This document shows, piece after piece, positions 29,124-57,111 of a stretch of 59,452 nt of DNA. The notes below the pieces were generated by a model. It was not told the DNA's origin and did no database searches. It saw only the letters and a program-made list of their open reading frames with translations. How positions within the stretch are numbered: position 1 is the first letter of the stretch; every line of letters starts with the position of its first letter. This DNA comes from a virus (taxonomy: Duplodnaviria > Caudoviricetes). The DNA lies in the IMG/VR virus record IMGVR_UViG_3300032301_000880, positions 1-59,452 of that record, one strand, 5' to 3'. A program made the position numbers and the translations under genes.

Positions 29124-29632
29124 ACGTCAAAAGTAGGGCTTTCTGACGATATTTTAAAATACAACTCCATCAGGGAATGACCAAAAGGGAGTAGTCCGAA
29201 TCTGCCAGGATTTGCCATAAGGATAGAATATGTGTTCTTTATGATCCTGCCTACATTGTCTGTGTACGGGATCCCGTACCGCTGTAAGTCCTCTTCGTAA
29301 TCCTCTTTGTCTAATACTTGGGCAAAGATTCGCTGTAAGCTACGGTAACTTAGAATTAAATCAGAGTAGAAAAAGACTTTGCCCTTGGGTATTGAAGGGA
29401 AAAGTTTGGTTAAGAAGTAATGGAAGGTGTAGATTATCTGGTATTCTGTAACCGCCGGTATTTTTGTTAAAACAGGGGTAGTCAACTTGTGGCACGGTAA
29501 CTTCTCCAGAAACACATAGAACACAATAGGGTCGCTTCCCGTAACAAAAACAACCGTTCCCTTTGAAGGGTCAAACCGCTTCGCTGGGAAAAAACCCGTC
29601 GCCCTGTCAAACTTTAACGGCTTTAGTGCCAT
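29069..29632 (-). CDS. Hypothetical protein
   Basis: 187-aa ORF immediately after the promoter at 29642-29667. Confidence 0.6.
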   Translation of the reverse strand: MALKPLKFDRATGFFPAKRFDPSKGTVVFVTGSDPIVFYVFLEKLPCHKLTTPVLTKIPAVTEYQIIYTFHYFLTKLFPSIPKGKVFFYSDLILSYRSLQRIFAQVLDKEDYEEDLQRYGIPYTDNVGRIIKNTYSILMANPGRFGLLPFGHSLMELYFKISSESPTFDVCNKVLKLTDVTDYSRVS

Positions 29633-30339: not shown

Positions 30340-30504
30340 CTTCAGGGGAAGCAAAAAAAAATCGGGCAAATTTGAATTGGACGGAATTTGGGCAAAAGAT
30401 TTTAGAATTTTATTTTCTTTTTTTTTATTTTTCTTTTCTATAATTCTATATCTTCAGGATAACATCCCTATTAGCATGGAACATTTTGAGCATAGATTCT
30501 TCTA

Positions 30505-30935
30505 AGGAGGACAAAACAATCCCTTCCCCGATTAAGGGGGGATTTGTCTTGTCCTGAGAGGTGTAACATTCGTCACATGAGTTCCCCGTCGTCAGACCCC
30601 AAACCCTGTTAGACCATGTTTAGGTGCGGTGATTCTCTGTTTTAAAGAGTCTTCGCCTATAACCGCCCAGTGTGTTTCCACACTTACAATTCAGTCCCAG
30701 TCTGCTTGCTCCTGATTACTGGGTTAGTTTCGCTCAATGCTCAGTTAGGAAAGTACGCCCCACATTGTGCTATCTGATTTGTCTTTAACGAGATAAAAAA
30801 GAAAAGCCTCGATTGAGTTAACAATCAAGGCTTTAAACATAGTTTAAGACCGGGAAGAAGGTGAAAACAAAACTATATGCTCTTACACGTTTTTTTTAAA
30901 CCTTCTTCCCAAAAGGCGTTAGCTCAACGGCACAA
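30505..30935 (-). ncRNA. Putative structured non-coding RNA / attenuator region
   Basis: No credible ORF. Several hairpins: GGGAAGAAGGT/ACCTTCTTCCC, AAAGCCT..AGGCTTT with U tract, GTGTG-GAAA-CACAC, CCCAGT/ACTGGG and AGGACAA/TTGTCCT. Confidence 0.45.
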
Positions 30936-31058
30936 AGTAAAACAACCCGTTTTTAAAAAGCAAGAAGTTTTTTATTTTTTTTTCTGAACCGCTCTCTATT
31001 TTATTTTTTTGCGGGTTTTTGTAACCTTTTCTCTGGGAATGCGTATAGTATAATAGGT

Positions 31059-31229
31059 ATGAACAAGAAGCTATTAAAAAGAATTGAGCAACTTTTTACA
31101 GAAAGGTTGAAAGCAAAAACCGGATGGGGGAGAAACGAAGTCCTGCAAGCCTACAAAGATTGCTTCAATGAGGCTATCAGTGAGATTCTACTTCCTTTGC
31201 TGGATGAGAAAACAAGCCCAAATGATTAA
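31059..31229 (+). CDS. Small hypothetical protein (56 aa)
   Basis: MNKKLLKRIEQLF...KTGWGRNE..., translated by hand, directly after TGTAAC-N16-CGTA (31020-31045). Confidence 0.6.
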   Translation: MNKKLLKRIEQLFTERLKAKTGWGRNEVLQAYKDCFNEAISEILLPLLDEKTSPND

Positions 31230-31798: not shown

Positions 31799-32719
31799 AT
31801 GGAAGAAGCAAAAACAAATACCCCTACCATTAACATAGCCCTTGTTTCCGGAGGGAAAGACAGTCAAGCTGTTGCTATTTGGGCTAAAAAAACCCTCGAA
31901 AACGTTATTTATTTAAACTGCGATACGGAATGGGAGGATGAGGTTACTTATGAGTTTTTAAACGAATTTGAAAACAAGCTGGGCGAAAAGATAATAAGAT
32001 TAACAAGTATGGGATTTGAAAATCTGACAAGAAAGAAAGGCAGGTTCGCCTCTACAAAAGCAAAGTTTTGTACTGAAGAGTTAAAAATAAAGCCCACAAT
32101 AGATTTTATATTGAGTTTAGAAGGCAATGTTAATATATATCAAGGCATTCGATGGGAAGAAAGCACGAACAGAGCATCCATGAATAAGTCAGAGGATTAT
32201 TTTAAATATTACTTTGAGTCTTATGGATTTGACAAAAAAGGTAAACCTAAACGATATTCTTATCGAAAAAAAGATATAGTCTTGTGGCTAAAAAAATATT
32301 TTTGTTTTGCAGTGAGGCCAATTATTAGCTGGTCTACAAAGGAGGTTTTTGAATACATTATTGATAATGGATATATGCCAAACAAGCTTTATCAATATGG
32401 ATTTACACGGGTTGGATGTTTCCCTTGTATTATGTGTTCGCTGGATGAAGTTGCTAAGATTGCGGAATACAGACCTGAGAAAGTAGAGTATATTAAAAAA
32501 CTTGAAATAGAATTAGGGACAACTTTTTTCCCACCAAATTATATTCCAGTCAGGTTTTGTAGTAGAAAAATCAGAAAGATTGATAAAGAAACTAAGCAAC
32601 CAGTAATAGTGGGCATCCCTTCAATTGCGGATGTGATTAATTATGTTCAATCTAAAGGGTATGGCTCTGGGTTATTTGTTGGGTCGCACTGCCAAAACCC
32701 TATGTTGCCTTGCGAGTAA
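31799..32719 (+). CDS. PAPS reductase-like protein
   Basis: VSGGKDS, CDTEWE, KFCTEELKIKP, GIRWEES, RPIISWS and RVGCFPC. Confidence 0.85.
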   Translation: MEEAKTNTPTINIALVSGGKDSQAVAIWAKKTLENVIYLNCDTEWEDEVTYEFLNEFENKLGEKIIRLTSMGFENLTRKKGRFASTKAKFCTEELKIKPTIDFILSLEGNVNIYQGIRWEESTNRASMNKSEDYFKYYFESYGFDKKGKPKRYSYRKKDIVLWLKKYFCFAVRPIISWSTKEVFEYIIDNGYMPNKLYQYGFTRVGCFPCIMCSLDEVAKIAEYRPEKVEYIKKLEIELGTTFFPPNYIPVRFCSRKIRKIDKETKQPVIVGIPSIADVINYVQSKGYGSGLFVGSHCQNPMLPCE

Positions 32720-33552: not shown

Positions 33553-33597
33553 AAACACCTAATCGAACAAAATAGGGGGCGGTATCGTAAAAGAACC

Positions 33598-35781: not shown

Positions 35782-36830
35782 ATGAAACATATCGGGTTGT
35801 TTGAAGGGATAGGAGGTTTTTCATTGGCGGCACGTTGGATGGGATGGGAAACCGTTGCCTGGTGCGAATGGAATGAATTTGGACAAAAGGTTTTAAGACA
35901 TCACTTCCCGGAAGCGGAAGGATTTGGAGATATAACAAAAACAGATTTTACAAAATATGCAAACAGAATTGATATACTCACAGGAGGATTTCCCTGCCAA
36001 CCTTACTCACTTGCAGGAAAGCGAAAAGGAAAAGAAGATGACCGCCACCTCTGGCCGGAAATGCTTAGAGCAATTAGAGAAATTCGACCAAGTTGGGTTG
36101 TGGGCGAAAACGTTTTCGGCCTTATTAATTGGAATGGAGGGATGGTATTCGACGAAGCGCAAACTGACTTGGAAGCTGAAGGGTACGAAGTCTGGGCGTA
36201 TGTATTGCCAGCTTGTGCCGTTAACGCACCGCACAAAAGAGAGCGAATTTGGTTTGTTGCCTACCGTAACAAGTGTACAAAGGGATCATCCGGAAAGAGT
36301 AGAGAAATTAAAAGCATCGGGGCCAAAACAATGATGAGCAGGAACAACGGAGAGGAGAGGCCAAACAGTATAATAGATCACATGAATTTTTACGGAATTC
36401 TACCAACTCCAACAGGAATGGACGCAACGAATGCCACAGCAAACATGAAAAGCAGCCAAGTGAAACAGGGGAGTATGCACTCAATGACTTTAACGAGGTT
36501 ACTATGCACCCCAACGGCACAAGCGAGCAGAGGGAATACATCGGACAAACGAGGAAAAGGCAATTTGACGGACCAGATAGCAGAAATGGAATTAACAACT
36601 GGGAAAACTTCCCAACTCAATCCCCGATTTGTGGCGGAAATGATGGGCTTCCCGCCGAATTGGACGGAATTACCTTTCCAAAATGGAGAAACGAAAGTAT
36701 AAAAGCTTATGGGAACGCAATTGTTCCACAAGTAGCATTTCAGATTTTTAAAGCTATTGAGCGAATGAATGTTAACCACAAACCTGTAATCGAACAAAAA
36801 GAGGGGCGGGTTCGTACAAAGAGAAAATGA
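35782..36830 (+). CDS. dcm: C5-cytosine DNA methyltransferase locus with overlapping frames and a 1-nt frameshift near 36320
   Basis: LFEGIGG, GFPCQ, ENV and RERIW in 35782-36702. Motif X (KAYGNAIVPQV) is in 36504-36830, and an alternative-frame ORF spans 35957-36334. Confidence 0.85.
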
Positions 36831-37509: not shown

Positions 37510-37755
37510 AATTAACTAAGAAAACCCCGAAATGATTGATTTTCGGGGCGGTTGCAGAACCAGAAAAGAAAGAAGAACACCAAGAGCCAGAACCAGCCAC
37601 ACCTCAACCCTTCTCCATAACAGAAGCCAGGTGGGACGCAACCCAACGAAACATAAACACGCTCTACGCAGAGATACAGAAAATAAACGAAAGCCTCAGA
37701 GGCATTAAGTAAAGACTAACCCAAGCGAGTTCGCATTTACGGGTATTATCAGTGG

Positions 37756-37785
37756 AAGGGGAGAGCAATCTCCCCTTAGCCTTTT
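37756..37785 (+). terminator. Terminator-like hairpin ending the plus-strand replication block
   Basis: AAGGGGAGA-GCAA-TCTCCCCTT followed by AGCCTTTT. Confidence 0.6.
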
Positions 37786-38149
37786 ATATTGATTCCGGAG
37801 CCGGTAGAGTCGAATCGAAAAACGAGCAGGAATAAACCTACCAGAAATGGCAGAATGGATTTAAGGCTATCCAAAATCCAAACAGCAATGCCACCATTTA
37901 AGAGAACCGCCACTATCTACCCAACACCAAACGCATATAATACCTATCCCATCCAATAACAAGAATCCAATACAACCAAGCCAATTCCATAGAACACTAT
38001 AAAATCCAATACCACCAAAAAAATCGTGACTAAGGTACCGATATATTAAAACCACCCCCACCCTAAAGCTGTTTATCTTGAAAAACCATTTTTTTTTGCC
38101 GTTTTGCCAGAAAAAATAGATTCCTTTTTTGTTTTTTTTGTGCGCTGAT

Positions 38150-38162
38150 TATCAATGAGTTA
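38150..38162 (+). promoter_or_regulatory. IHF-type binding box
   Basis: TATCAATGAGTTA matches WATCAANNNNTTR, 7 bp from the dif-like site. A near-copy TCTCAAGGGGTTA lies at ~38548. Confidence 0.5.
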
Positions 38163-38169
38163 CAAGTCT

Positions 38170-38197
38170 ACTTAACATAATATAAATTATAGGACAA
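38170..38197 (-). other. dif: XerCD dif-like recombination site
   Basis: Minus strand TTGTCCTATAA-TTTATA-TTATGTTAAGT (11-6-11). The right arm matches the E. coli XerD arm TTATGTTAAAT at 10/11. Confidence 0.75.
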
Positions 38198-38655
38198 AAA
38201 CATGATCCACTGGTTGAGCAGGGCAATTCCTGAAGCTGCACCGGTTGATCCTGTAAAGGGCTCGCTATATATATACTTTACTATACTCTATATTCTATGA
38301 TGAAATATGATGATGCTTAGGTGCGAAACATTCCTAAGTAAGAATTATTTTTATCTAATAGTCTTTGTTATCTGTGGTTGTGTGGTGGGGGTATTTTGGT
38401 TGTTTTGCACGGTTTTAGGGTTTGTGAGGTATATTATTATAGTAGTTATATACTGTTTGCTGGAGCGGGGATTTTAGGCTAAAAATGGGTAACGAATAGA
38501 TATTCGATATAATTTTTCCCGTTCGTGGTATAATTTTATTATATTGATTCTCAAGGGGTTACAAAAAAGGTTAAAATATTTGTTCTATATTTTGCCGTAA
38601 AATGTAGAACGTATTAAAAAGTTTCTTAATGTTGCATAAGATTTAAAACGAAAAA

Positions 38656-38985
38656 ATGCCAATTACAAAACGGCTAAGCGAACGGATTAACGATGAGACT
38701 TACAAAGCTTTAGTAAGTCAGGGTATCAAAGGGAATGAGGCGTTAATACTCATATACCAAGAGGAGACAGGGGCGAACGTCTTTAAAACGTTTATACAGT
38801 GGAAAGCAGAAGGAATGATGGTAAAAAAAGGTTCTGAAGGGTTCCCTGTGTTTTCCCGTTCAATAGGTAAGATCAAGGAGGAACAAGGGAAAGAGACTAA
38901 AGAAGGAGAAAATAGAATGTTTCGTACTGCTTACTTGTTTAATGAGTTACAAGTGGAGCCTTTGAATGTTAGGGAACCGGCCTAA
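38656..38985 (+). CDS. ArdC N-terminal-like ssDNA-binding protein
   Basis: FKTFIQWKAEGMMVKKGSEG...FRTAYLFNELQVE. First gene of the early block. Confidence 0.75.
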   Translation: MPITKRLSERINDETYKALVSQGIKGNEALILIYQEETGANVFKTFIQWKAEGMMVKKGSEGFPVFSRSIGKIKEEQGKETKEGENRMFRTAYLFNELQVEPLNVREPA

Positions 38986-38998
38986 AAAATATTCAAAT

Positions 38999-39054
38999 GC
39001 GGGTTTTCTGGTGAAATATTAGGGTTCGATTCTCTTAAACCTGCCTAACATTTA
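38999..39054 (+). ncRNA. tRNA-minihelix-like element 1 with CTAACATTTA leader
   Basis: GCGGGTTT/AAACCTGC stem and AGGG-TTCGATT-CTCT T-arm. Confidence 0.6.
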
Positions 39055-39065
39055 TTTACAACAAA

Positions 39066-40232
39066 ATGAAAGTTCAAATTTTAGAATCAGGGGAAATACT
39101 TACTTTCTCAGGTGGCCCAAAGGAGGCCGCAAATCATTTTAATTTATCAAACGGGCTTTTAGGCCTTGCGTCTCTGAGCTCTCAGGGTGTTATTAAGATT
39201 TTACCTAATGATCACCAGGTCGAACCGGAACCGGTAAAAGCCCAAAGTATTAAGCCTATTGAGCAGGACCACAAACCAACACCAAAGGAGGAAAAAAATA
39301 TTATCCCTTTGGTAGAAGTTGTGGAACCAGAAACAAAGGAACCGGAAATTATTGATCCTGAGAAATTAATTTTAAAGGCATTCCAGCAAATTAAAAACAG
39401 TGGTTCTATTGATATTGAACAAGTGCGGGCAATTGTTAAAGAGGAACTATTAAAACAAGCAAACCCGGTAATTGAACACAAGTTTCAAATCCAAAGTTTG
39501 CCAGAATACAAAACAACTGAGGTACATTCCTGTATTGATACGTTGGTAAAATTAGCGATGAATAAGCGGCACGCATGGGTATACGGGCCTCCAGGCTCTG
39601 GTAAATCGTATGCTTGTAAACAAGTGGCGGAAATATTGAATATCCCCTTTTATTCTAAAAGTTTTAGTTCTCAGGCCTCAGTATTTGAATTAAAAGGATT
39701 TCAGAATGCAAACGGTGTTTATGTGGAAACAGATTTTGTAAAATGTTTTAGAGATGGTGGCCTTTTCTTACTGGATGAAATAGACGGGGCAAACCCCAAT
39801 GTATTGTTAAGTCTTAATAGTGCACTATCAAACGGGTTTATAGATACTCCGGGCGGTCAAATTGTTAAAAGTCCCGAGTTCGTTTGTTTTGCAGGTGCTA
39901 ATACCATAGGGACCGGAAACAGTGCTAAATACGCAGGCAGGCAAATAATTGATCAAACCACTATATCCCGTTTCAGGTTTGTTTATTTTGGCTATGATGA
40001 AAATTTAGAAACCGTTTTAGTAGGTTCGGCAATTGCAAAAAAAGTCCAAAAAATTAGACAAAAGGCGAATGAAAAGGGTTTACAGTTTGAAGTTTCTCCG
40101 CGTGTTTCGCTTCAAATTAGGGATGCAATTCAAGACGGTTTTACCCTTTTTGAAGCATGGGATCAAGCACTGATTAACAAATTGAACGAAACCGATAAAA
40201 AGCAGGTTGAAATCTGGATAAGCGAACTATGA
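39066..40232 (+). CDS. MoxR/CbbQ-type AAA+ ATPase
   Basis: GPPGSGKS, LLDEID, GANTIG and YAGRQIIDQTTISRF. Confidence 0.85.
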   Translation: MKVQILESGEILTFSGGPKEAANHFNLSNGLLGLASLSSQGVIKILPNDHQVEPEPVKAQSIKPIEQDHKPTPKEEKNIIPLVEVVEPETKEPEIIDPEKLILKAFQQIKNSGSIDIEQVRAIVKEELLKQANPVIEHKFQIQSLPEYKTTEVHSCIDTLVKLAMNKRHAWVYGPPGSGKSYACKQVAEILNIPFYSKSFSSQASVFELKGFQNANGVYVETDFVKCFRDGGLFLLDEIDGANPNVLLSLNSALSNGFIDTPGGQIVKSPEFVCFAGANTIGTGNSAKYAGRQIIDQTTISRFRFVYFGYDENLETVLVGSAIAKKVQKIRQKANEKGLQFEVSPRVSLQIRDAIQDGFTLFEAWDQALINKLNETDKKQVEIWISEL

Positions 40233-40969
40233 AACACGTATTTAACAGTCTAAATGCTTTTGCGTCCTTCATGCAGGACGCAAATAATAACCTTGACAAG
40301 TTCAAAGGGATTAAAAGGGGTTCTGCTTGTTGGAGTGCGAGGGATGATTTTAACGGTGGTGTATCTTTTGAAACGGCTTTAGGTTATTTGCAAAACGGTT
40401 TTTATGCTCCTGTAAAAGAATTACAAACCGTTGGGAATTTTGAACAAGGTAGTACAATAGACTTTAAGGCTTCAGTTTGCGGTGTGTTTGCCAGCGTTCC
40501 CGCTTATCTAAGTGGGGATCCTTTGGCCTTTTTTGAATTTAATGAACAAGCGACCAATAAAAAATCTTTTCTTATTGACGTTTGTGTACCTGCAAATTTT
40601 GATACTGAAGAACTAAAAAACAAGGTTGAACTTGTTTTAAATATCATTAATTCGCTTGAATGTGACAATATCAAGTGTGAAATAATAATAGGGGTAAAAA
40701 CCGTCGAAATTACAAAACAGGGCAAAATAAAAGCATCTCACGAACTTGAAATAGTTGTTAAACCTTTTGAGGATCGTATAAACTTAGGGACCCATTCCTT
40801 TGCACTTGGTAACATAGCTTTTTTTAGGTCACTGTGCCTATGTTATATCTCCTTATATGCCAAAGATCCGAGGTTGGGCAATGTACGGCCTTACGAATGT
40901 CCTGAAGGAGCTATTAGCGTCTCTTTATTCAGGGACTCGACCGAAACTATTTTAAAGAAAATGCTTTAA
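40229..40969 (+). CDS. VWA-like partner of the MoxR ATPase
   Basis: Coupled to the MoxR gene. VPAYLSGDP, IINSLEC, VKPFED and AFFR are typical of phage CobT/VWA-like partners. Confidence 0.6.
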   Translation: MKHVFNSLNAFASFMQDANNNLDKFKGIKRGSACWSARDDFNGGVSFETALGYLQNGFYAPVKELQTVGNFEQGSTIDFKASVCGVFASVPAYLSGDPLAFFEFNEQATNKKSFLIDVCVPANFDTEELKNKVELVLNIINSLECDNIKCEIIIGVKTVEITKQGKIKASHELEIVVKPFEDRINLGTHSFALGNIAFFRSLCLCYISLYAKDPRLGNVRPYECPEGAISVSLFRDSTETILKKML

Positions 40970-40994
40970 TCCCGGCCCTAAAATCAATTTTTTG

Positions 40995-41051
40995 CCCTGT
41001 TTACGATATTGTTTTAAACTCCTCAGAAGAGTTAACAGGGACTAACATTTA
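40995..41051 (+). ncRNA. tRNA-minihelix-like element 2
   Basis: CCCTGTT/AACAGGG (7 bp) plus AACTC-CTCAGAA-GAGTT (5 bp), then A and CTAACATTTA. Confidence 0.6.
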
Positions 41052-41064
41052 ACAAAACAACAAA

Positions 41065-41556
41065 ATGAAAAAGACAGTAAAAACAATTAAGGCGGATTTA
41101 GAAGCTATTAAACACATAGCAGATGTTTCTGTAAATTATTCCACCAAAGTAAAAGCAAAAGACAGAAAGGAGCTTGAAGGCCTTTCAGAAGCCTACCAAC
41201 TTATTTGGGATCGTTCAATAGGCTTGCAATTAGAACTAAAGGAGTTTTTTTATATGCTCGTTTTAGATCGTGCAAACAAAGTTTTAGGGATTATGAAATT
41301 AGGAGAAGGTAGTGCCAGTGCGTGTATTGTTGATATTCAGCAAATGGTTAGAACTGCGCTCCTTTGCAACGCTCAGGGAGTTATTATGTGGCATAATCAT
41401 CCATCAGGGAATATAAACCCATCAGAAGCAGACAAAGTAATAACTGAAAGGGCAAAACAGGCTTTAAAACTAATGGATATTAATCTAATAGACCATTTTA
41501 TAATAACAGCAGAAAAGTACTGGTATACTTCATTTAAGAAAGAAGGGTTATTATAA
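41065..41556 (+). CDS. radC: RadC-like JAB-domain protein
   Basis: KEFFYMLVLD, HNHPSG, PSEADK and DHFII. Confidence 0.9.
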   Translation: MKKTVKTIKADLEAIKHIADVSVNYSTKVKAKDRKELEGLSEAYQLIWDRSIGLQLELKEFFYMLVLDRANKVLGIMKLGEGSASACIVDIQQMVRTALLCNAQGVIMWHNHPSGNINPSEADKVITERAKQALKLMDINLIDHFIITAEKYWYTSFKKEGLL

Positions 41557-41652
41557 TACCGCCTCCCTTTTCAATCTTTTGCAGGTATTTAAAAATCTTT
41601 AGTATTAGTAAAAACTTTTACTAACTTTGAATAACAATTTAACCTTTTCATC

Positions 41653-41847
41653 ATGAACAAGACAGAAAAAAAATTGTACGTACTTATGTTCTTCCTTCTC
41701 GCACTCATAGCGGGAGTTAAGGAGCATAGAAAAGCGGAGTTTGACCATTCCATCAAGCACTTTAGCTTACCCAGTAACAGGTATAAAGACCTGGTTAAAA
41801 ACATTGAAGCACACAGAGAATTTTCAATTAATCAACATGGAAACTGA
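41653..41847 (+). CDS. Small membrane protein
   Basis: One hydrophobic helix, with TAACTTTG upstream. Confidence 0.5.
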   Translation: MNKTEKKLYVLMFFLLALIAGVKEHRKAEFDHSIKHFSLPSNRYKDLVKNIEAHREFSINQHGN

Positions 41848-41998
41848 ACCTTATTTCAACCCTGAACAATTTGTGGGCTTTTGTATCTTCTTTATCTTCC
41901 TTTACGGGTTTGTGATGGCTTCAATAGGAATGTGGTTCTACAAAGCAAGTAAGAAAACAGATGGGAAAGATGTTTTTATATCCCGCCGGAAAAATTAA
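41837..41998 (+). CDS. Small membrane protein
   Basis: Likely start METEPYF, with a transmembrane stretch FVGFCIFFIFLYGFVMASIGMWF. Confidence 0.5.
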   Translation: METEPYFNPEQFVGFCIFFIFLYGFVMASIGMWFYKASKKTDGKDVFISRRKN

Positions 41999-42003
41999 TC
42001 AAT

Positions 42004-42074
42004 TAGGGGCAAACGGTCAAAAGGGAATCTGATTCCCGCAGGAGGTTCGAGTCCTCCACCCCTACTAACATTTA
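42004..42074 (+). ncRNA. tRNA-like element 3 (T-arm and extra hairpin, no D-stem)
   Basis: TAGGGG/CCCCTA, GGGAAT-CTG-ATTCCC, GGAGG-TTCGAGT-CCTCC, then CTAACATTTA. Confidence 0.65.
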
Positions 42075-42085
42075 ATAACAACATC

Positions 42086-42721
42086 ATGAGAAAGGCAGAG
42101 TTAAGGCAGTGTATTACTGAACGTAGTACTTACTGGTCCAAAGGTCGGTTAATAAGATTTATTACCATTTACATGGCATCTGGTTACAGGTGGGAGGATA
42201 CCGCTGACCCTGAACGAGAGGGTATTAGTTACCATTTTACAGAAGAAGAAGCAATTGCAGCAGCGGACAAAATTAATTTGTCATTAGGGTTTAAAGCTCA
42301 GGTAGATTCAATAGAGATTGACTATGAAGAAGCAAATCAGCACTTTGCCTTCCGGCAGGAGTTTACCTGGTCAGACGTGGACCATAAAAGATTTTACCCG
42401 AATAGTACAACCATTTATTGCGGAAGGTTTAATGCCGGTTTAGAGTTAAGCCCTGATGCCATTGTAGTAGGTTATAATCATCATATGTATATGAATTATT
42501 CATATGATATCAATTTTGTAGGGCCGGTGAGGGATACCCACCTAAAAAAGGAATCTGACTTGGTAAATTCTAAAGACTCTACAACGGCTACTTATTTTAC
42601 CGTTTATGAAACCATAGAAGAACTGGAAGAGTCTTTTAAAAAAGGGGCTTCTGTACCATTCAATAAGATTAATAGAGGGTCAAGGTTAATCAGGGAGTTT
42701 ATTGAGGAGTCCCGCACCTAA
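42086..42721 (+). CDS. Hypothetical early protein
   Basis: 211-aa ORF after element 3. Confidence 0.65.
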   Translation: MRKAELRQCITERSTYWSKGRLIRFITIYMASGYRWEDTADPEREGISYHFTEEEAIAAADKINLSLGFKAQVDSIEIDYEEANQHFAFRQEFTWSDVDHKRFYPNSTTIYCGRFNAGLELSPDAIVVGYNHHMYMNYSYDINFVGPVRDTHLKKESDLVNSKDSTTATYFTVYETIEELEESFKKGASVPFNKINRGSRLIREFIEESRT

Positions 42722-42734
42722 AATTAATCAAACG

Positions 42735-42791
42735 CCCTGTTTGTGATATTGCTTCATCCGGCTCAGAACCGGAAACAGGGACTAACATTTA
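42735..42791 (+). ncRNA. tRNA-minihelix-like element 4
   Basis: CCCTGTT/AACAGGG plus TCCGG-CTCAGAA-CCGGA, then A and CTAACATTTA. Covaries with element 2. Confidence 0.65.
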
Positions 42792-42804
42792 ACAACAAAT
42801 CAAA

Positions 42805-43314
42805 ATGGGTTTAGACAGCTATTTAGTTAAAAAAACGTATGTTAAAAATTGGAAACATACGCCTGCCAAAGAAAGGCACACTGTAACCGTTTTATTGAAT
42901 GGGGAATTATCCCCCGAAATAAAACCAGAAAGAATGTTTTCAATTGTTGAGGAAATTTGGTCTTGGAGGAAAGCAAATCAAATACACAAATGGTTTGTAG
43001 ACAACTGCCAAGACGGAGAGGACAACTGTAAAGAGTACTATGTAAGCAGAGAACAACTTCAAGAACTTGTAGACATTTGCGAAAAGGTTCGGGATAGTTT
43101 GCTTGCTGAAGGTAATTCCGAAGGGGAAATGGGCAAAAGAAGGTTTTTAAACACCGATGTCGCTAAAGAATTACTCCCAACCTCATTAGGGTTTTATTTT
43201 GGAAGCGAGGCTTACGATGAAAACTATCTCATAGACCTGAAAGAAACAATTGCTTATGTAAAACCTGAGCTTTCCTCCAAAACCGGAGATTTTTATTATC
43301 AGGCTTCTTGGTAA
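42805..43314 (+). CDS. Conserved phage hypothetical protein
   Basis: MGLD..., WRKANQIHKWFV, LLPTSLGFYFG and YYQASW form a recurrent phage family pattern. Confidence 0.7.
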   Translation: MGLDSYLVKKTYVKNWKHTPAKERHTVTVLLNGELSPEIKPERMFSIVEEIWSWRKANQIHKWFVDNCQDGEDNCKEYYVSREQLQELVDICEKVRDSLLAEGNSEGEMGKRRFLNTDVAKELLPTSLGFYFGSEAYDENYLIDLKETIAYVKPELSSKTGDFYYQASW

Positions 43315-43320
43315 GCCTAA

Positions 43321-43373
43321 GCGGGAAAATGGTTTTAAGAGGGTTCGATTCCCTCTTTCCTGCCTAACATTTA
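43321..43373 (+). ncRNA. tRNA-minihelix-like element 5
   Basis: GCGGGAAA/TTTCCTGC stem, AGAGGG-TTCGATT-CCCTCT arm, then CTAACATTTA. Confidence 0.65.
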
Positions 43374-43384
43374 ATTAAAACAAC

Positions 43385-43618
43385 ATGACAGAGTACCTTT
43401 TAAAAACAGAAGCAGGCCCGATTGCCTTCTTTAAAGTCCCCCCACAACTACCAATGGAGGACTTGACTAATATGGTTCGCTCAAAGATTGAGCTTGAATC
43501 TAATACTCCCGTTATCCTTAATATGGGCTTGCCTCATGTTAAGAATAATGTAATCATGTTTAACTACATGACCGATTCCCTTACTACTCACCAGGCAACT
43601 CTTACTCCTTCCAAATGA
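43385..43618 (+). CDS. Hypothetical protein
   Basis: 77-aa ORF after element 5. Confidence 0.55.
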   Translation: MTEYLLKTEAGPIAFFKVPPQLPMEDLTNMVRSKIELESNTPVILNMGLPHVKNNVIMFNYMTDSLTTHQATLTPSK

Positions 43619-44634
43619 ATTTAAAAGAATTGCAGGCTATATTAGCCAAGTGTAAGATAAAGCCTTCCAGAAGCATTCCTATCGCCTCCGGCATAACATA
43701 CCATAATGGAATCTGGCAGGTAACTGATTTTAACAGTTACCTACAAATCCGGTACAACATTGGAGATGGAACATTTTTTATTCCTTTGCCTTTGGCAAAA
43801 AAAGCCAAAAAGATTGAAATTGTTGGCGGGATTATGCTTATAAACGGGTTTGAACACCCAGAGGCATATCCCATTGAATCAGAGGATCTTCCAAGTACAG
43901 ATGCATGGCTCCAATTGAAAAACTACATAGGCGTTTATCATATTGACATTCCTAACATAACTGATACTGTTTGTAGTACTAACCCTTTGCTACCTGCTAT
44001 AAATGGAATCTGTTTTGACTTCCCAGAATCTAAGGCTATTGCTACGGATGCTCATATTCTAAGAACATGGGAGTTAATCAACATAAAGCTAATAAAAGGG
44101 GATGCGGTAACAAGTCAAGTCATTTATCCTACTACTATTGCACAACTAAAGGGCATGACAGGGCTTAATGTTCAGGTAAACAAAGGGGCTTCCTTATTCT
44201 TAACCAAAGATTTTGACCTTATTGTTAAGCATATAGATGAAAAATTCCTTGCCTATCAAAATGTATTCCCAAGTCCTAACGACGTTAATTATATCGTATC
44301 GGCTCATAAGGACCTAATGTTAGCCTTGTGTGATTCTATCCCAGAAAGCGGGAAGCATAAGCACTTTGCTATGGAAATTAAGGATGAAAAAGTTACTGTT
44401 TTTGGCAAAGATGCTGAAGGTGTTATTTCTGACAAAGGAGTTCCCTTTCTCCATTGCCAAGTAATTCAACCAAGTCCGGAGGCTTCTATTAGAGTAGGCT
44501 TAGATGCCAAAAAACTAAAAACTATTGTTACCAGCATTACAGAAAGCAAATTTATCCGTATGGGCATTAGCACTAACAATAGAGCGTTTTTTATAAACGA
44601 TTCAAACCTCATTTTCCCTATGATCTTTTCGTAA
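43615..44634 (+). CDS. DNA polymerase III beta-clamp-like protein
   Basis: 339 aa with PAINGICFD..AIATDAHIL, IDEKFLAYQNVFP, VGLDAKKL and a terminal LIFPM, following the DnaN pattern. Confidence 0.65.
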   Translation: MNLKELQAILAKCKIKPSRSIPIASGITYHNGIWQVTDFNSYLQIRYNIGDGTFFIPLPLAKKAKKIEIVGGIMLINGFEHPEAYPIESEDLPSTDAWLQLKNYIGVYHIDIPNITDTVCSTNPLLPAINGICFDFPESKAIATDAHILRTWELINIKLIKGDAVTSQVIYPTTIAQLKGMTGLNVQVNKGASLFLTKDFDLIVKHIDEKFLAYQNVFPSPNDVNYIVSAHKDLMLALCDSIPESGKHKHFAMEIKDEKVTVFGKDAEGVISDKGVPFLHCQVIQPSPEASIRVGLDAKKLKTIVTSITESKFIRMGISTNNRAFFINDSNLIFPMIFS

Positions 44635-44652
44635 CACCTTACCCCAAATAAA

Positions 44653-44859
44653 ATGACAGAGAAAGTAAAACTGCTGGGAATTACGGCTCAGGACTTAATA
44701 GTAGTCTACCTAAATGGAATTCAGATAGTAGCCAAACCAGAATCAGAAGAGATTCTAAGAGTTAGAAGACCTCTATTCCAATGGGTGCCAGATGTACTAA
44801 TTGAAGTATCAGCTTCCCTTAAACTTAAATGTGAGAATGCAGTAAAACAGATGGTGTAA
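44653..44859 (+). CDS. Hypothetical protein
   Basis: 68-aa last ORF of the early block. Confidence 0.5.
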   Translation: MTEKVKLLGITAQDLIVVYLNGIQIVAKPESEEILRVRRPLFQWVPDVLIEVSASLKLKCENAVKQMV

Positions 44860-44890
44860 TACCGCCCCTAAAATTAATCTTTTAGGCTTA

Positions 44891-44926
44891 AAAACCCGCC
44901 CCTGAATAAAATCGGAGGCGGGTTTT
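44891..44926. terminator. Bidirectional terminator between convergent blocks (also a CCGCC-motif copy)
   Basis: AAAACCCGCC...GGCGGGTTTT. Confidence 0.75.
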
Positions 44927-44943
44927 CTCATGGTAGTTTAATA

Positions 44944-57034: not shown

Positions 57035-57111
57035 AGATTTTTGTTATACGATACCGCCCCCTATTTTGTTCGGAGGCGGGTACGGGCAAATGATTGTTTT
57101 TAGGGGCGGTT

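What the first reader, a model, noticed from the sequence alone, without database searches (positions are those of the whole stretch)
38999..43373. Five tRNA-minihelix mimics punctuate the early operon, each followed by CTAACATTTA
Seen: five intergenic elements (38999, 40995, 42004, 42735, 43321) each fold into a closing stem stacked on a short stem with a 7-nt loop. Each is followed by the same CTAACATTTA and an A-rich run to the next ATG. In four of five the loop is followed by exactly 5+7 nt, one base, then CTA. This is tRNA T-stem, acceptor stem and discriminator geometry, with CTA where CCA would be. Three carry the canonical T-loop TTCGA(T/G)T and a GG-containing connector. Known: RNase P and RNase Z recognise this minihelix, T7 early mRNA is cut at host RNase III sites, and tRNA punctuation occurs in mitochondria and mascRNA. 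Inference: the phage uses host tRNA-processing enzymes to cut or stabilise its polycistronic early mRNA into units with uniform 5' leaders. It may also release small tRNA decoys, for example against anticodon nucleases.
Basis: partly seen in the sequence, partly recalled or inferred. Interest (0 to 1): 0.88.

Follow-up and report, generated by a model that had tools for sequence, protein, structure and literature searches.

The report
tRNA-mimic punctuation in a phage operon
Five small RNA structures that copy the top half of a transfer RNA sit between the genes of one phage operon, most likely so that the host's tRNA-trimming enzymes cut the long message into units with matching leaders.

Summary
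CTAACATTTA occurs exactly five times in the 59-kb record. All five are on the + strand, and each directly follows a 7-bp stem stacked on a 5-bp stem with a 7-nt loop. Relatives from metagenomes carry the same elements with compensatory stem changes. They are not tRNAs (ARAGORN 0, Rfam 0), not terminators and not promoters.

New here: "CTA instead of CCA" is not odd. In 62 tRNA genes of three Flavobacteriia genomes, position 74 is C in 60 and position 75 is C in only 3. CTA is the second commonest triplet. The elements therefore copy the native 3' flank of host pre-tRNAs.

Only the two intergenic regions without an element carry Bacteroidota-type -7 boxes. Their predicted transcript starts fall on a motif-like sequence. 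Homology breakpoints between relatives sit at the motif.

Best reading (about 0.5): these are processing signals like plant-mitochondrial t-elements, cut by RNase P and RNase Z, that also act as recombination joints. No RNA data exist, so cleavage is untested. The decoy idea has no support.

The parts
38999..39044 (+). e1, tRNA mimic of type A. G(-1), acceptor 5' strand 39000-39006, 13-nt connector with GG, T-stem 39020-39024 / 39032-39036, loop TTCGATT 39025-39031, acceptor 3' strand 39037-39043, discriminator-position C 39044.
   Evidence: 11 of 12 pairs; covariation with e5, L236 b1, L237 a2.
39045..39065 (+). CTAACATTTA (39045-39054) plus an 11-nt A-rich leader to ATG 39066 (AAA_5 ATPase gene).
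40994..41041 (+). e2, tRNA mimic of type B. Acceptor CCCTGTT/AACAGGG, 15-nt connector, stem AACTC/GAGTT, loop CTCAGAA, position-73 A.
   Evidence: (12 of 12).
41042..41064 (+). CTAACATTTA plus a 13-nt leader to ATG 41065 (RadC-like gene).
42004..42064 (+). e3, tRNA mimic of type C, without a D arm. Acceptor TAGGGG/CCCCTA, 13-nt GG connector, extra hairpin GGGAAT-CTG-ATTCCC, T-arm GGAGG-TTCGAGT-CCTCC. The motif follows with no separate discriminator base.
   Evidence: (the minimum-energy fold shows exactly this, z -1.9 to -2.4). Identical in L236 and L237.
42065..42085 (+). CTAACATTTA plus leader to ATG 42086 (211-aa ORF, no family).
   Evidence: In L236 the same site reads CCAACATTTA.
42734..42781 (+). 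e4, tRNA mimic of type B. Same acceptor, connector and loop as e2, but the stem is TCCGG/CCGGA.
   Evidence: (12 of 12).
42782..42804 (+). CTAACATTTA plus a 13-nt leader to ATG 42805 (169-aa ORF).
43321..43363 (+). e5, tRNA mimic of type A. Acceptor CGGGAAA/TTTCCTG (three pairs flipped relative to e1), 10-nt GG connector, T-arm GAGGG-TTCGATT-CCCTC.
   Evidence: (12 of 12).
43364..43384 (+). CTAACATTTA plus an 11-nt leader to ATG 43385 (77-aa ORF, then a clamp-like gene).
   Evidence: Three other runs' contigs start matching at 43368, inside this motif.
38627..38655 (+). Candidate operon promoter P1. A -7-like box TAATGTTG (one mismatch to TAnnTTTG) lies 29 nt before ATG 38656 (ArdC-N-like gene).
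   Evidence: The homologous region in L236 has TAGTATTG followed by GGAACATTTA and a leader.
41622..41652 (+). Candidate internal promoter P2. It holds the only perfect TAnnTTTG box (TAACTTTG) on the + strand of 37700-44900. It is followed by ATAACAATTTAACC... and ATG 41653.
   Evidence: The region is conserved in L236 and L237.
44890..44930 (.). Probable two-way intrinsic terminator closing the operon. A GC-rich stem (CCCGCCCC ... GGAGGCGGG) is flanked by an A-run and a T-run. Coordinates are approximate.
   Evidence: Read by eye.
40970..40990 (+). Upstream box TCCCGGCCCTAAAATCAAT, just after the stop codon. Similar boxes lie at 38977, 41557 (variant), 41981 (variant), 42712 and 44862. It is the 5' boundary of the shuffled cassette.
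   Evidence: Also seen in relatives' loose ends.

Best explanation
The five elements are minimal tRNA mimics made as part of one long phage message. Each consists of an acceptor stem stacked on a T-arm. Three have a canonical T-loop and a GG 'D-loop' stand-in.

Each is followed, exactly where the CCA of a tRNA would lie, by C-U-A-A. This is the kind of 3' flank that tRNA genes of the three sampled Flavobacteriia genomes carry.

Inferred mechanism: the host's tRNA-maturation enzymes treat each element as a pre-tRNA. RNase Z cuts at the 3' end of the mimic, and RNase P may cut at its 5' end. This would divide the operon transcript into units. Each downstream message would then start with (C)UAACAUUUA plus a short A-rich leader. 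That is nearly the same 5' end that the two promoter-proximal genes should get by transcription initiation. If RNase P does not cut, each upstream message could keep the mimic as a protective 3' end.

A side effect, or second role: the conserved flanks (the upstream box and the motif) act as joints at which related phages exchange gene cassettes.

Shown: the structure, its strandedness, covariation, the host-like flank, the absence of promoter and terminator signals, and the mosaic breakpoints. Inferred: every enzymatic step.
For: 1. Motif and geometry are real. There are 5 of 5 exact motifs on one strand, each preceded by the 7+5 stack. The background rate for that geometry is 0.6% of positions.

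2. Covariation.
- Type B (e2, e4, L237 a1, a4): 47 of 48 cells pair. All 5 T-stem pairs change on both sides, giving three wholly different stems under an identical loop. 0 of 500 shuffles reach the score, and slid controls pair at 31-52%.
- Type A (e1, e5, L236 b1, L237 a2): 45 of 48 cells pair and 5 pairs are compensatory. 0 of 500 shuffles reach the score.
- Where acceptor pair 7 is lost in b1 and a2, the T-stem gains a sixth pair, so the 12-bp stack is kept.

3. Strand. Conserved G-U pairs work only on the + (sense) strand.

4. Host-like flank. In 62 tRNA genes from three Flavobacteriia genomes, position 74 is C in 60, position 75 is C in 3 and position 76 is A in 44. The triplets are CAA 27, CTA 13, CTT 6 and CCA 1. 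PMC5143459 says Bacteroidetes/Chlorobi tRNA genes mostly do not template CCA (passages read). An RNase Z equivalog scores above its cut-off in 3 of 3 of these genomes.

5. Promoters and terminators.
- -7 boxes with at most one mismatch occur within 75 nt upstream of only 2 of 11 gene starts in the operon (38656 and 41653). None precedes the five element-preceded genes.
- No terminator-like or sigma-70-like site lies at any element.

6. Leader match. After the -7 boxes come ATAACAATTTAAC (window 41631) and GGAACATTTAAAAAC (L236). The motif-like sequence therefore sits at the predicted transcript start.

7. Same layout elsewhere.
- A large gut-phage family has a -7 box, a real tRNA-Val, the same 10-mer, 14 nt and then an ORF.
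- A Bacteroidales MAG has tRNA-Trp, the motif, 14 nt and secE. A Chitinophagaceae MAG has tRNA-Met, the motif, 12 nt and a cold-shock gene.

8. Translation signals fit a Bacteroidota-type host. SD-like tetramers occur at 6 of 49 gene starts, and leaders are 41% A.
Against: No RNA evidence of any kind exists. No RNA run holds the sequence, so no cut site is shown.

The host is unknown. The best cultured-phage match to the helicase is 35% identical, and the three Flavobacteriia genomes are stand-ins.

Only 9 distinct element sequences from three related genomes were available. The covariation therefore rests on few, related rows, and whole-stem swaps could come from recombination rather than stepwise compensation.

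e1 and e2 fold no better than shuffles. Their T-stems are absent from the minimum-energy fold.

Type B loops (CTCAGAA) are not T-loops, and type B connectors have no GG.

Base -1 is G, not the U that bacterial RNase P prefers (recalled).

One relative (L236) lacks any element before the 77-aa ORF yet keeps the leader. The element is therefore dispensable there.

The conserved ACATTTA part of the motif is not explained by tRNA mimicry.

The wider 'tRNA + motif' hits may be partly chance. C74-biased trailers make my reversed-motif control too lenient.
Confidence: 0.5

Rival explanations
1. The elements are mainly cassette boundaries, that is mobile regulatory or recombination linkers like the PeSLs of T4-type phages. 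The conserved upstream box and the motif provide short homologies at which gene cassettes are swapped. On this reading the hairpin serves as a generic RNA stabiliser or insulator and is not recognised by tRNA enzymes.
For: Homology breakpoints sit at the motif.
- Contigs of three other runs begin matching at 43368.
- A joint runs from 42083 to 43368 in two runs.
- A type A element replaces type B before the RadC gene in one run and in L236.
- L236 joins a different upstream gene directly to ...CATTTA plus the leader.
- The upstream box recurs at the 5' side.

The PeSL precedent: abstract of PMC2839356 read.
Against: A generic hairpin would not need any of the following:
- the exact 7+5 (or 6+6) stack;
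- the canonical TTCGAnT loop with a GG connector, present in 5 of 5 distinct type A and C elements;
- the host-type C74-U-A-A flank.

Unlike PeSLs, these elements contain neither a promoter nor a terminator.

Recombination at conserved sequence is expected whatever the sequence does, so this rival is compatible with the best explanation rather than opposed to it.
Confidence: 0.2
2. The point of the elements is the released small RNAs. After excision, the roughly 45-60-nt minihelices act on their own. They could be substrates or sponges for CCA-adding enzyme, synthetases, or tRNA-targeting host defence nucleases. The uniform leaders would then be secondary.
For: The operon carries anti-defence-type genes, namely ArdC-N-like and RadC. 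Three different designs (A, B, C) are kept side by side in each genome. A G-U pair is invariant in 4 of 4 type A acceptors, which hints at specific protein recognition.
Against: Four of five elements have no anticodon-like arm, so they cannot decoy anticodon nucleases. Nothing shows that the RNAs accumulate. One relative lacks an element at one site without an obvious substitute.
Confidence: 0.1
3. Each element is a promoter or a terminator-promoter unit. CTAACATTTA would be a -7/-10-like box (AACATTTA loosely resembles TAnnTTTG). The T-loop TTCG would be a -33-like box, and the hairpin would be a terminator.
For: AACATTTA matches 4 of the 6 specified positions of TAnnTTTG. One relative has ...ACATTTG, which matches 5 of 6. 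TTCG lies 18 nt upstream in types A and C (read). A fixed -33/-7 spacing would also explain the exact adjacency to the T-arm.
Against: The spacing (18 nt) and the boxes are off the consensus as I recall it (TTTG, then 19-21 nt, then TAnnTTTG).

Type B has no TTCG or TTTG at that place.

The lineage's real promoter-like boxes end 21-24 nt before the ATG. That is where the motif begins, so the motif occupies the transcript-start position and not the box position.

No T-run follows the stems, and 0 of 5 elements are flagged as terminator-like. The operon's flanks do have canonical GC-hairpin-plus-T-run terminators.

Stem covariation is not needed for a promoter.
Confidence: 0.07
4. The elements are decayed remnants of phage tRNA genes with no present function. 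They would be kept only by linkage and recent duplication.
For: Phages often carry tRNA genes. e3 looks like a tRNA that lost its D arm. ARAGORN and Rfam reject all five.
Against: Compensatory changes keep the stems. Five of five elements sit in the same register before the same motif and a gene start. The loops are invariant while the stems turn over.
Confidence: 0.05

Closest known systems
t-elements of plant mitochondria (Forner et al. 2007, PMC1920247; abstract read)
   Same: Both are tRNA-like structures that are not tRNAs. They sit at mRNA 5' or 3' ends and are proposed to act as cis-signals for RNase Z and/or RNase P.
   Different: Here they are in a bacteriophage, five in one operon. 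They come in three designs, and each is coupled to an invariant 10-nt motif and a uniform leader. Ends are mapped in the plant case and not here.
tRNA punctuation of animal mitochondrial transcripts, and mascRNA at the MALAT1 3' end
   Same: tRNA or tRNA-like folds inside long transcripts direct RNase P and RNase Z cuts that define neighbouring RNA ends.
   Different: Those use full cloverleaves (real tRNAs, or a full mimic). Here four of five elements keep only the acceptor/T-arm stack plus a linker.
Bacterial tRNA-mRNA co-transcripts (for example the tufB operon, recalled). In E. coli, RNase E cuts 1-3 nt after the encoded CCA (PMC2190699, start of the abstract seen in the listing).
   Same: A tRNA upstream of an ORF on one transcript is separated from it by tRNA-processing nucleases.
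   Different: Those use functional tRNAs, one per operon head. Here non-decoding mimics are repeated between genes.
PeSL cassettes of T4-type phages (Arbiol et al. 2010, PMC2839356; abstract read)
   Same: Both are short, repeated intergenic cassettes in a variable early region, and recombination between them shuffles genes. The breakpoints seen fit this.
   Different: PeSLs are a sigma-70 promoter plus a terminator hairpin. These elements have neither and instead have tRNA geometry.
RNase III processing sites of T7 early mRNA (recalled)
   Same: Host endonuclease sites between the genes of a phage early polycistronic message.
   Different: RNase III sites are long, imperfect double-stranded hairpins. 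These are 12-bp tRNA-type stacks with T-loops.

Membership tests
tRNA (Rfam RF00005 / ARAGORN) | Cloverleaf with D arm, anticodon arm, T arm and acceptor stem, detectable by the standard models | tested here: not met
   ARAGORN finds 0 genes in the window. Rfam finds 0 matches at gathering score. No tRNA match appears at E up to 10 in 38500-44000. Four of five elements lack an anticodon arm, and none has a D stem.
tRNA-like processing signals (t-elements) | Acceptor stem coaxial with a T-arm (about 12 bp) and a 7-nt loop, in a transcript that is not a tRNA | tested here: met
   11-12 of 12 pairs form in all five elements. Covariation is seen in relatives.
tRNA-like processing signals (t-elements) | mRNA 5' or 3' ends that map to the borders of the structure, made by RNase Z or RNase P | not testable with these tools
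   No RNA run holds the sequence. Only DNA contigs could be laid.
tRNA-like processing signals (t-elements) | A 3' flank that the host's tRNA 3'-end pathway accepts (no CCA anti-determinant) | tested here: met
   The flank is N-C-T-A-A. In 62 Flavobacteriia tRNA genes, C74 occurs in 60, C75 in 3, and CTA in 13. RNase Z is present in 3 of 3 of those genomes. The real host is unknown.
Intrinsic (Rho-independent) terminator | GC-rich hairpin directly followed by a T-run | tested here: not met
   0 of 5 elements are flagged. The stems are followed by CTAACATTTA, not a T-run.
PeSL-type promoter/terminator cassette | A functional promoter consensus inside the cassette | tested here: not met
   No sigma-70-like site lies at the elements. 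No TAnnTTTG box with at most 1 mismatch lies within 75 nt upstream of the five genes.
PeSL-type promoter/terminator cassette | Recombination between cassettes that shuffles the flanking genes | tested here: met
   Breakpoints lie at 41042, 42068, 42083 to 43368, and 43368 in other runs' contigs. Element types are swapped, or the element is absent, in L236.
RNase III site (T7 R1.1 type) | About 20 bp of double-stranded RNA with an internal loop | tested here: not met
   The stems are 7 + 5 bp, interrupted by a 10-30-nt single-stranded connector.
Integron attC site | Paired core sites RYYYAAC ... GTTRRRY, with an integron integrase nearby | tested here: inconclusive
   Read by eye: type A ends in GCCTAAC, which fits RYYYAAC, but types B and C do not fit. 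No GTTRRRY partner is seen on the same strand. I did not screen all ORFs for an integrase.

The most novel reading that the evidence does not exclude
Phages of Bacteroidota, and perhaps their hosts, may use tRNA 3'-end processing as a regular way to create translatable mRNA 5' ends. This phage lineage would have reduced the tRNA to a portable 45-60-nt 'cut-here' cassette: an acceptor/T-arm mimic, a host-type C74-UAA flank and a fixed leader start.

The cassette would punctuate an operon, equalise the leaders of unrelated genes and serve as the joint for cassette exchange. This would be a phage counterpart of mitochondrial tRNA punctuation.

The same 10-mer lies after real tRNAs in a large gut-phage family, and before secE and a cold-shock gene in two Bacteroidota MAGs. 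That would then reflect one shared, host-read signal.
Probability: 0.3. Interest if true: 0.85.

Novelty: new variant of a known kind. Interest (0 to 1): 0.7.

Why it matters
Most of what is known about how phages divide and balance their early polycistronic messages comes from RNase III and RNase E sites in coliphages. A phage that plants several minimal tRNA mimics between its genes would extend 'tRNA punctuation', so far an organelle and nuclear-lncRNA phenomenon, to viruses of bacteria.

It would also bear on a phylum, Bacteroidota, whose mRNA leaders and translation signals are unusual and little studied.

It would give a compact, testable definition of what Bacteroidota RNase P and RNase Z need in a substrate. 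Three natural minimal designs with natural compensatory variants are available.

It could also provide a portable processing cassette for genetic tools in Bacteroidota.

Finally, the host-side observation deserves a wider survey. In 62 sampled Flavobacteriia tRNA genes, C74 is templated in 60, while C75 is templated in only 3 and A76 in 44. That says something about the order of 3'-end maturation in this phylum.

Tried and rejected
Known RNA families: Rfam at gathering score on the whole window found nothing. At E up to 10 on 38500-44000 it found only noise. ARAGORN found nothing.

Close relatives among cultured phages: blastn of 38000-44000 found none. Megablast of L007 found none. tblastn of the helicase reached at most 35% identity.

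Relatives in IMG/VR by protein (ATPase, clamp-like): none. The type B pattern in IMG/VR gave 2 chance hits.

RNA evidence: no RNA holder is listed for 38600-44900, so nothing can be said about expression or ends.

Wider 'tRNA + CTAACATTTA' association:
81 of 119 rows are ARAGORN tRNAs, all at gap 13. Of these, 75 belong to one tRNA-Val family.
- The reversed 10-mer control gave 0 of 29 tRNAs.
- I later saw that C74-biased trailers make that control too lenient.
- The TTCAANT version gave only 2 of 38. CCAACATTTA gave 15 of 39, about what a 7-mer after CCA would give.
- In genome contigs, 19 of 109 hits are tRNAs. Of the 13 whose titles I saw, 11 are Bacteroidota and one is Ignavibacteriota. 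The titles of L205-L233 were not shown.
- I therefore treat the single-copy cases as suggestive only.

In 14 of the 17 loci that one search printed (15 lineages, since L007 and L009 are one family), an ORF of at least 60 aa starts 11-23 nt after the motif. Apart from the tRNA-Val family rows (L007, L010, L033), no two downstream proteins compared are alike. L058 and L108 have only 6- and 9-aa frames at the first ATG.

A guess that tRNA-Trp is directly followed by secE in a Chryseobacterium genome was wrong. The first ATG there opens 6 codons.

Integron attC likeness was rejected by eye, because only type A fits one core site.

Alignment: MAFFT of all eight type A and B elements put the acceptor 5' strands out of register. 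I aligned the two types separately. e3 and its identical copies were left out of both counts.

A structured-looking non-coding stretch at 30340-31060 gave no Rfam match below E 0.05.

I built no covariance model. Only sequence already held could have been searched with it.

Full report
WHAT THE WINDOW IS. The window is an IMG/VR virus record of 59,452 bp, classed as linear and about 68% complete. It has no close relative among 50,697 deposited phage genomes. blastn found no match, and the helicase reaches at most 35% identity by tblastn.

Genes on the + strand run from about 29.7 to 44.9 kb. The finding lies in the last part of this block, 38656-44859. Recognisable genes there are:
- an ArdC-N-like anti-restriction fragment;
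- an AAA_5 ATPase;
- a DUF7192 protein;
- a RadC-like JAB protein;
- two proteins with no Pfam family (one has a weak hit to a PHROG of unknown function);
- a 77-aa ORF;
- a clamp-like protein.

A terminator-like hairpin at 37756 and about 900 nt of non-coding DNA precede this part. A GC-rich hairpin flanked by A- and T-runs follows it at about 44.9 kb (by eye).

Gene starts across the window rarely have a Shine-Dalgarno tetramer (6 of 49). Their leaders are 41% A, against 28% in the genome. This is the Bacteroidota style of translation start (recalled).

CTAACATTTA occurs exactly five times. All five are on the + strand, at 39045, 41042, 42065, 42782 and 43364. It occurs nowhere else, and the backwards-read control gives none.

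I parsed backwards from the motif. In e1, e2, e4 and e5 the order is: one base, a 7-nt strand, a 5-nt strand, a 7-nt loop, the 5-nt partner, a 10-15-nt connector, and the 7-nt partner. e3 has the same order but no separate single base. It also has a 30-nt connector that contains an extra hairpin.

Pairs formed out of 12 are 12 for e2, e4 and e5 and 11 for e1 and e3. In a scan of both strands with a generous connector range and G-U allowed, 712 of about 118,900 positions reach 11 of 12, and 53 are perfect. Five of five at prescribed positions is therefore not chance.

The elements fall into three designs:
- Type A (e1, e5): loop TTCGATT and a GG in the connector.
- Type B (e2, e4): loop CTCAGAA and no GG.
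- Type C (e3): loop TTCGAGT, a GG connector and an extra hairpin. It looks like a tRNA without a D arm.

Energy alone is weak evidence. e3, e4 and e5 fold as described with z about -2. e1 and e2 are no better than shuffles, and their short stems are missing from the minimum-energy fold.

WHAT THEY ARE NOT.
- They are not tRNA genes: ARAGORN finds 0, and Rfam finds 0 at gathering score and no tRNA hit at E up to 10.
- They are not intrinsic terminators. None of the five is flagged and no T-run follows. The operon's flanks do use canonical hairpin-plus-T-run terminators.
- They are not sigma-70-type promoters.
- They are not Bacteroidota-type promoters. On the + strand of 37700-44900 there is one perfect TAnnTTTG box, at 41622. 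Boxes with at most one mismatch lie within 75 nt upstream of only two of eleven gene starts (38656 and 41653). None lies before the five genes that follow an element.

RELATIVES AND COVARIATION. Protein searches of IMG/VR found no kin. One metagenome scan with the clamp-like protein returned three contigs, L236-L238, at 94% amino-acid identity.

These contigs carry the same three designs at the same kinds of places.
- Type B, four distinct copies (e2, e4, L237 a1, a4): 47 of 48 cells pair. All five short-stem pairs change on both sides. The stems AACTC/GAGTT, TCCGG/CCGGA and CTACT/GGTAG lie under an identical loop and between identical flanks. 0 of 500 shuffles reach the covariation score, and slid controls fall to 31-52% paired.
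- Type A, four distinct copies (e1, e5, L236 b1, L237 a2): 45 of 48 cells pair and five pairs are compensatory. This includes three flipped A-U pairs in the acceptor of e5. 0 of 500 shuffles reach the score.
- In b1 and a2 the seventh acceptor pair is lost and a sixth short-stem pair appears, so the 12-bp stack is kept as 6+6.
- An invariant G-U in type A, and G-U pairs elsewhere, work only on the sense strand. This points to RNA, not DNA.

The sample is small and the rows are related. Whole-stem replacement by recombination cannot be told from stepwise compensation.

THE 3' FLANK IS HOST-LIKE. I took 62 distinct tRNA genes from three Flavobacteriia genomes that the pattern scan had reached (a Flavobacterium, a Chryseobacterium and a Winogradskyella). 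I then registered their acceptor stems.
- Position 74 is C in 60 of 62.
- Position 75 is C in 3 (A in 35, T in 22).
- Position 76 is A in 44.
- The triplets are CAA 27, CTA 13, CTT 6 and CCA 1.

A published survey says that most tRNA genes of the Bacteroidetes/Chlorobi group do not template CCA (PMC5143459, passages read). All three genomes encode an RNase Z equivalog above the curated cut-off.

The N-C-T-A-A after each mimic is therefore what a pre-tRNA of such a host looks like. In L236 the e3 copy reads CCAACATTTA. In the e3 register this gives C-A-A after the discriminator, the commonest host triplet.

These genomes are stand-ins. The phage's host is not known.

THE MOTIF SITS AT THE TRANSCRIPT START, NOT IN A PROMOTER. 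The two intergenic regions of the operon without an element do have -7-type boxes. What follows those boxes resembles the motif:
- In the window, TAACTTTG is followed by A-ATAACAATTTAACC... and ATG 41653.
- In L236, at the head of the operon, TAGTATTG is followed by T-GGAACATTTAAAAAC... and an ATG.

These boxes end 21-24 nt before the ATG. That is where CTAACATTTA begins in the element-preceded genes, whose motif starts 21-26 nt before the ATG.

As I recall, transcription starts a few bases after such a box. If so, primary transcripts begin within the AACA(A)TTTA stretch. A cut at the 3' end of the mimic would give nearly the same 5' end. This is the best support I found for the 'uniform leader' idea. 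It is inference.

MOSAICISM. DNA contigs of three other runs were laid at 80% likeness. Two of the runs are freshwater metagenomes, and one is from the study of the probable source sample. The contigs show that homology with the window repeatedly starts or stops at the motif:
- Three contigs begin matching at 43368, inside the e5 motif.
- Two runs join 42083 to 43368.
- One contig has a type A element where the window has type B, before the RadC gene. L236 has the same.

In L236 the 77-aa ORF is preceded by a different gene and no element at all, yet it keeps ...CATTTA plus the identical leader.

On the 5' side, a second conserved box (CCCGSCC..TAAAATYAAT) follows the stop codons. Its reverse complement resembles a repeat found before many genes elsewhere in the genome.

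The unit of box, mimic and motif thus behaves as a cassette joint. This resembles the PeSL cassettes of T4-type phages (abstract of PMC2839356 read), but without their promoter and terminator.

THE SAME JUNCTION ELSEWHERE.
- 81 rows are ARAGORN tRNAs that end at the motif. All 81 have the gap of exactly 13 nt.
- 75 of them are one family with tRNA-Val(GAC), in seven distinct 3' halves with the motif unchanged. The other six are Met, Arg and Leu tRNAs.
- Three more rows (L014, L020, L035) are tRNA-like but ARAGORN-negative. L014 is an armless design like e3.

In the tRNA-Val family, a perfect -7 box lies 13 nt before the tRNA, and an ORF starts 14 nt after the motif. Copies sit in Bacteroides and Mediterranea MAG contigs.

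In cellular genomes, 19 of 109 hits are tRNAs. They include tRNA-Trp, motif, 14 nt and secE in a Bacteroidales MAG, and tRNA-Met, motif, 12 nt and a cold-shock gene in a Chitinophagaceae MAG.

Outside the window's lineage, ORFs of at least 60 aa start 11-23 nt after the motif in 14 of the 17 loci that one search printed. These represent 15 lineages, because L007 and L009 are one family. Apart from the tRNA-Val family rows, no two downstream proteins compared are alike.

Caution is needed. The reversed-motif control (0 of 29 tRNAs) is too lenient, given the C74 bias of trailers. The TTCAANT version found only 2 of 38. Some single cases have Shine-Dalgarno sites and may be chance. I count this as suggestive support for a shared tRNA-to-mRNA junction design, not as proof.

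MECHANISM AND RIVALS. The most economical reading is that the mimics are read as pre-tRNAs. RNase Z, which the CCA sequence blocks (recalled), would cut at the 3' border. RNase P might cut at the 5' border.

The nearest precedent is the t-elements of plant mitochondria. These are described as probable cis-signals for RNase Z and/or RNase P at mRNA ends (abstract of PMC1920247 read).

I put this reading at about 0.5. The rivals are:
- a recombination linker with a generic hairpin (0.2, and compatible with the first);
- function of the released minihelices themselves (0.1);
- promoter/terminator units (0.07);
- dead tRNA relics (0.05).

Decoys against anticodon nucleases are unlikely, because four of the five have no anticodon-like arm.

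Four things remain unexplained: the invariant ACATTTA part of the motif, the invariant type B loop over hypervariable stems, the invariant G-U in type A, and the upstream box.

PRIOR DESCRIPTION. Six full-text searches found no description of tRNA-like punctuation of a phage operon or of this motif. The only phage paper holding the 10-mer uses it inside a primer. The library lacks most subscription journals, so this is not proof of novelty.

Noticed in passing
window, - strand at 57061, 49117, 48229, 29656, 20579, 12831 and 11685; + strand at 33575: A repeat of about 25 bp, roughly ACAAAAnnGGGGGCGGTATCGTATAA, lies 10-35 nt before many gene starts on both strands. It is often just after a GC hairpin. 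It looks like a phage-specific (middle or late?) promoter or regulator site. Two 80-nt copies of its surroundings precede the - strand genes that start at 29632 and 48206.
   Followed up: partly
window 40970-40990, 42712-42730, 41981-42000, 41557-41575, 38977-38995, 44862-44880: The box after stop codons in the tRNA-mimic operon (CCCGSCC..TAAAATYAAT) is close to the reverse complement of the repeat above. For example, the - strand at 41566 reads GGAGGCGGTATTATAATAAC. It might drive antisense transcription into the operon, or bind the same factor. This was not tested.
   Followed up: partly
window 30340-31060: About 700 nt lack a long ORF, contain GC-rich, structured-looking sequence and end in a hairpin near 30800-30835. 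There is no Rfam match better than E 0.05 and no tmRNA. This may be an unknown non-coding RNA.
   Followed up: partly
window 37710-38655: About 900 nt of non-coding DNA separate two + strand gene blocks. An A/C-rich half is followed by a T/G-rich half, then the candidate operon promoter. This could be an origin or a regulatory region.
   Followed up: no
loci L307-L336 (three Flavobacteriia genomes): tRNA genes template C74 in 60 of 62 cases, but C75 in only 3 of 62. The gene flank reads N73-C-[A/T]-A. This suggests that 3'-end maturation in this group leaves or needs C74. I did not find this stated in the passages read of PMC5143459.
   Followed up: partly
L007 480-600, and 74 similar IMG/VR loci; L144, L167, L212: A large family of phage contigs carries a -7 box, tRNA-Val(GAC), CTAACATTTA, 14 nt and a 119-aa ORF with no Pfam family. 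Many come from one metagenome, and copies lie in Bacteroides and Mediterranea MAG contigs. The tRNA's T-stem varies in seven versions while the motif stays fixed.
   Followed up: partly
L236 3065; L237 402; L237 916: Natural motif variants in relatives are CCAACATTTA (after the e3 copy), CTAACATTTG and CTAAACATTTA (one base inserted). These are useful as natural mutants for tests.
   Followed up: no
window 31799-32719 and 35782-36702: The upstream + strand block holds a PAPS-reductase-like gene and a C-5 cytosine DNA methylase. These suggest DNA-modification functions.
   Followed up: no
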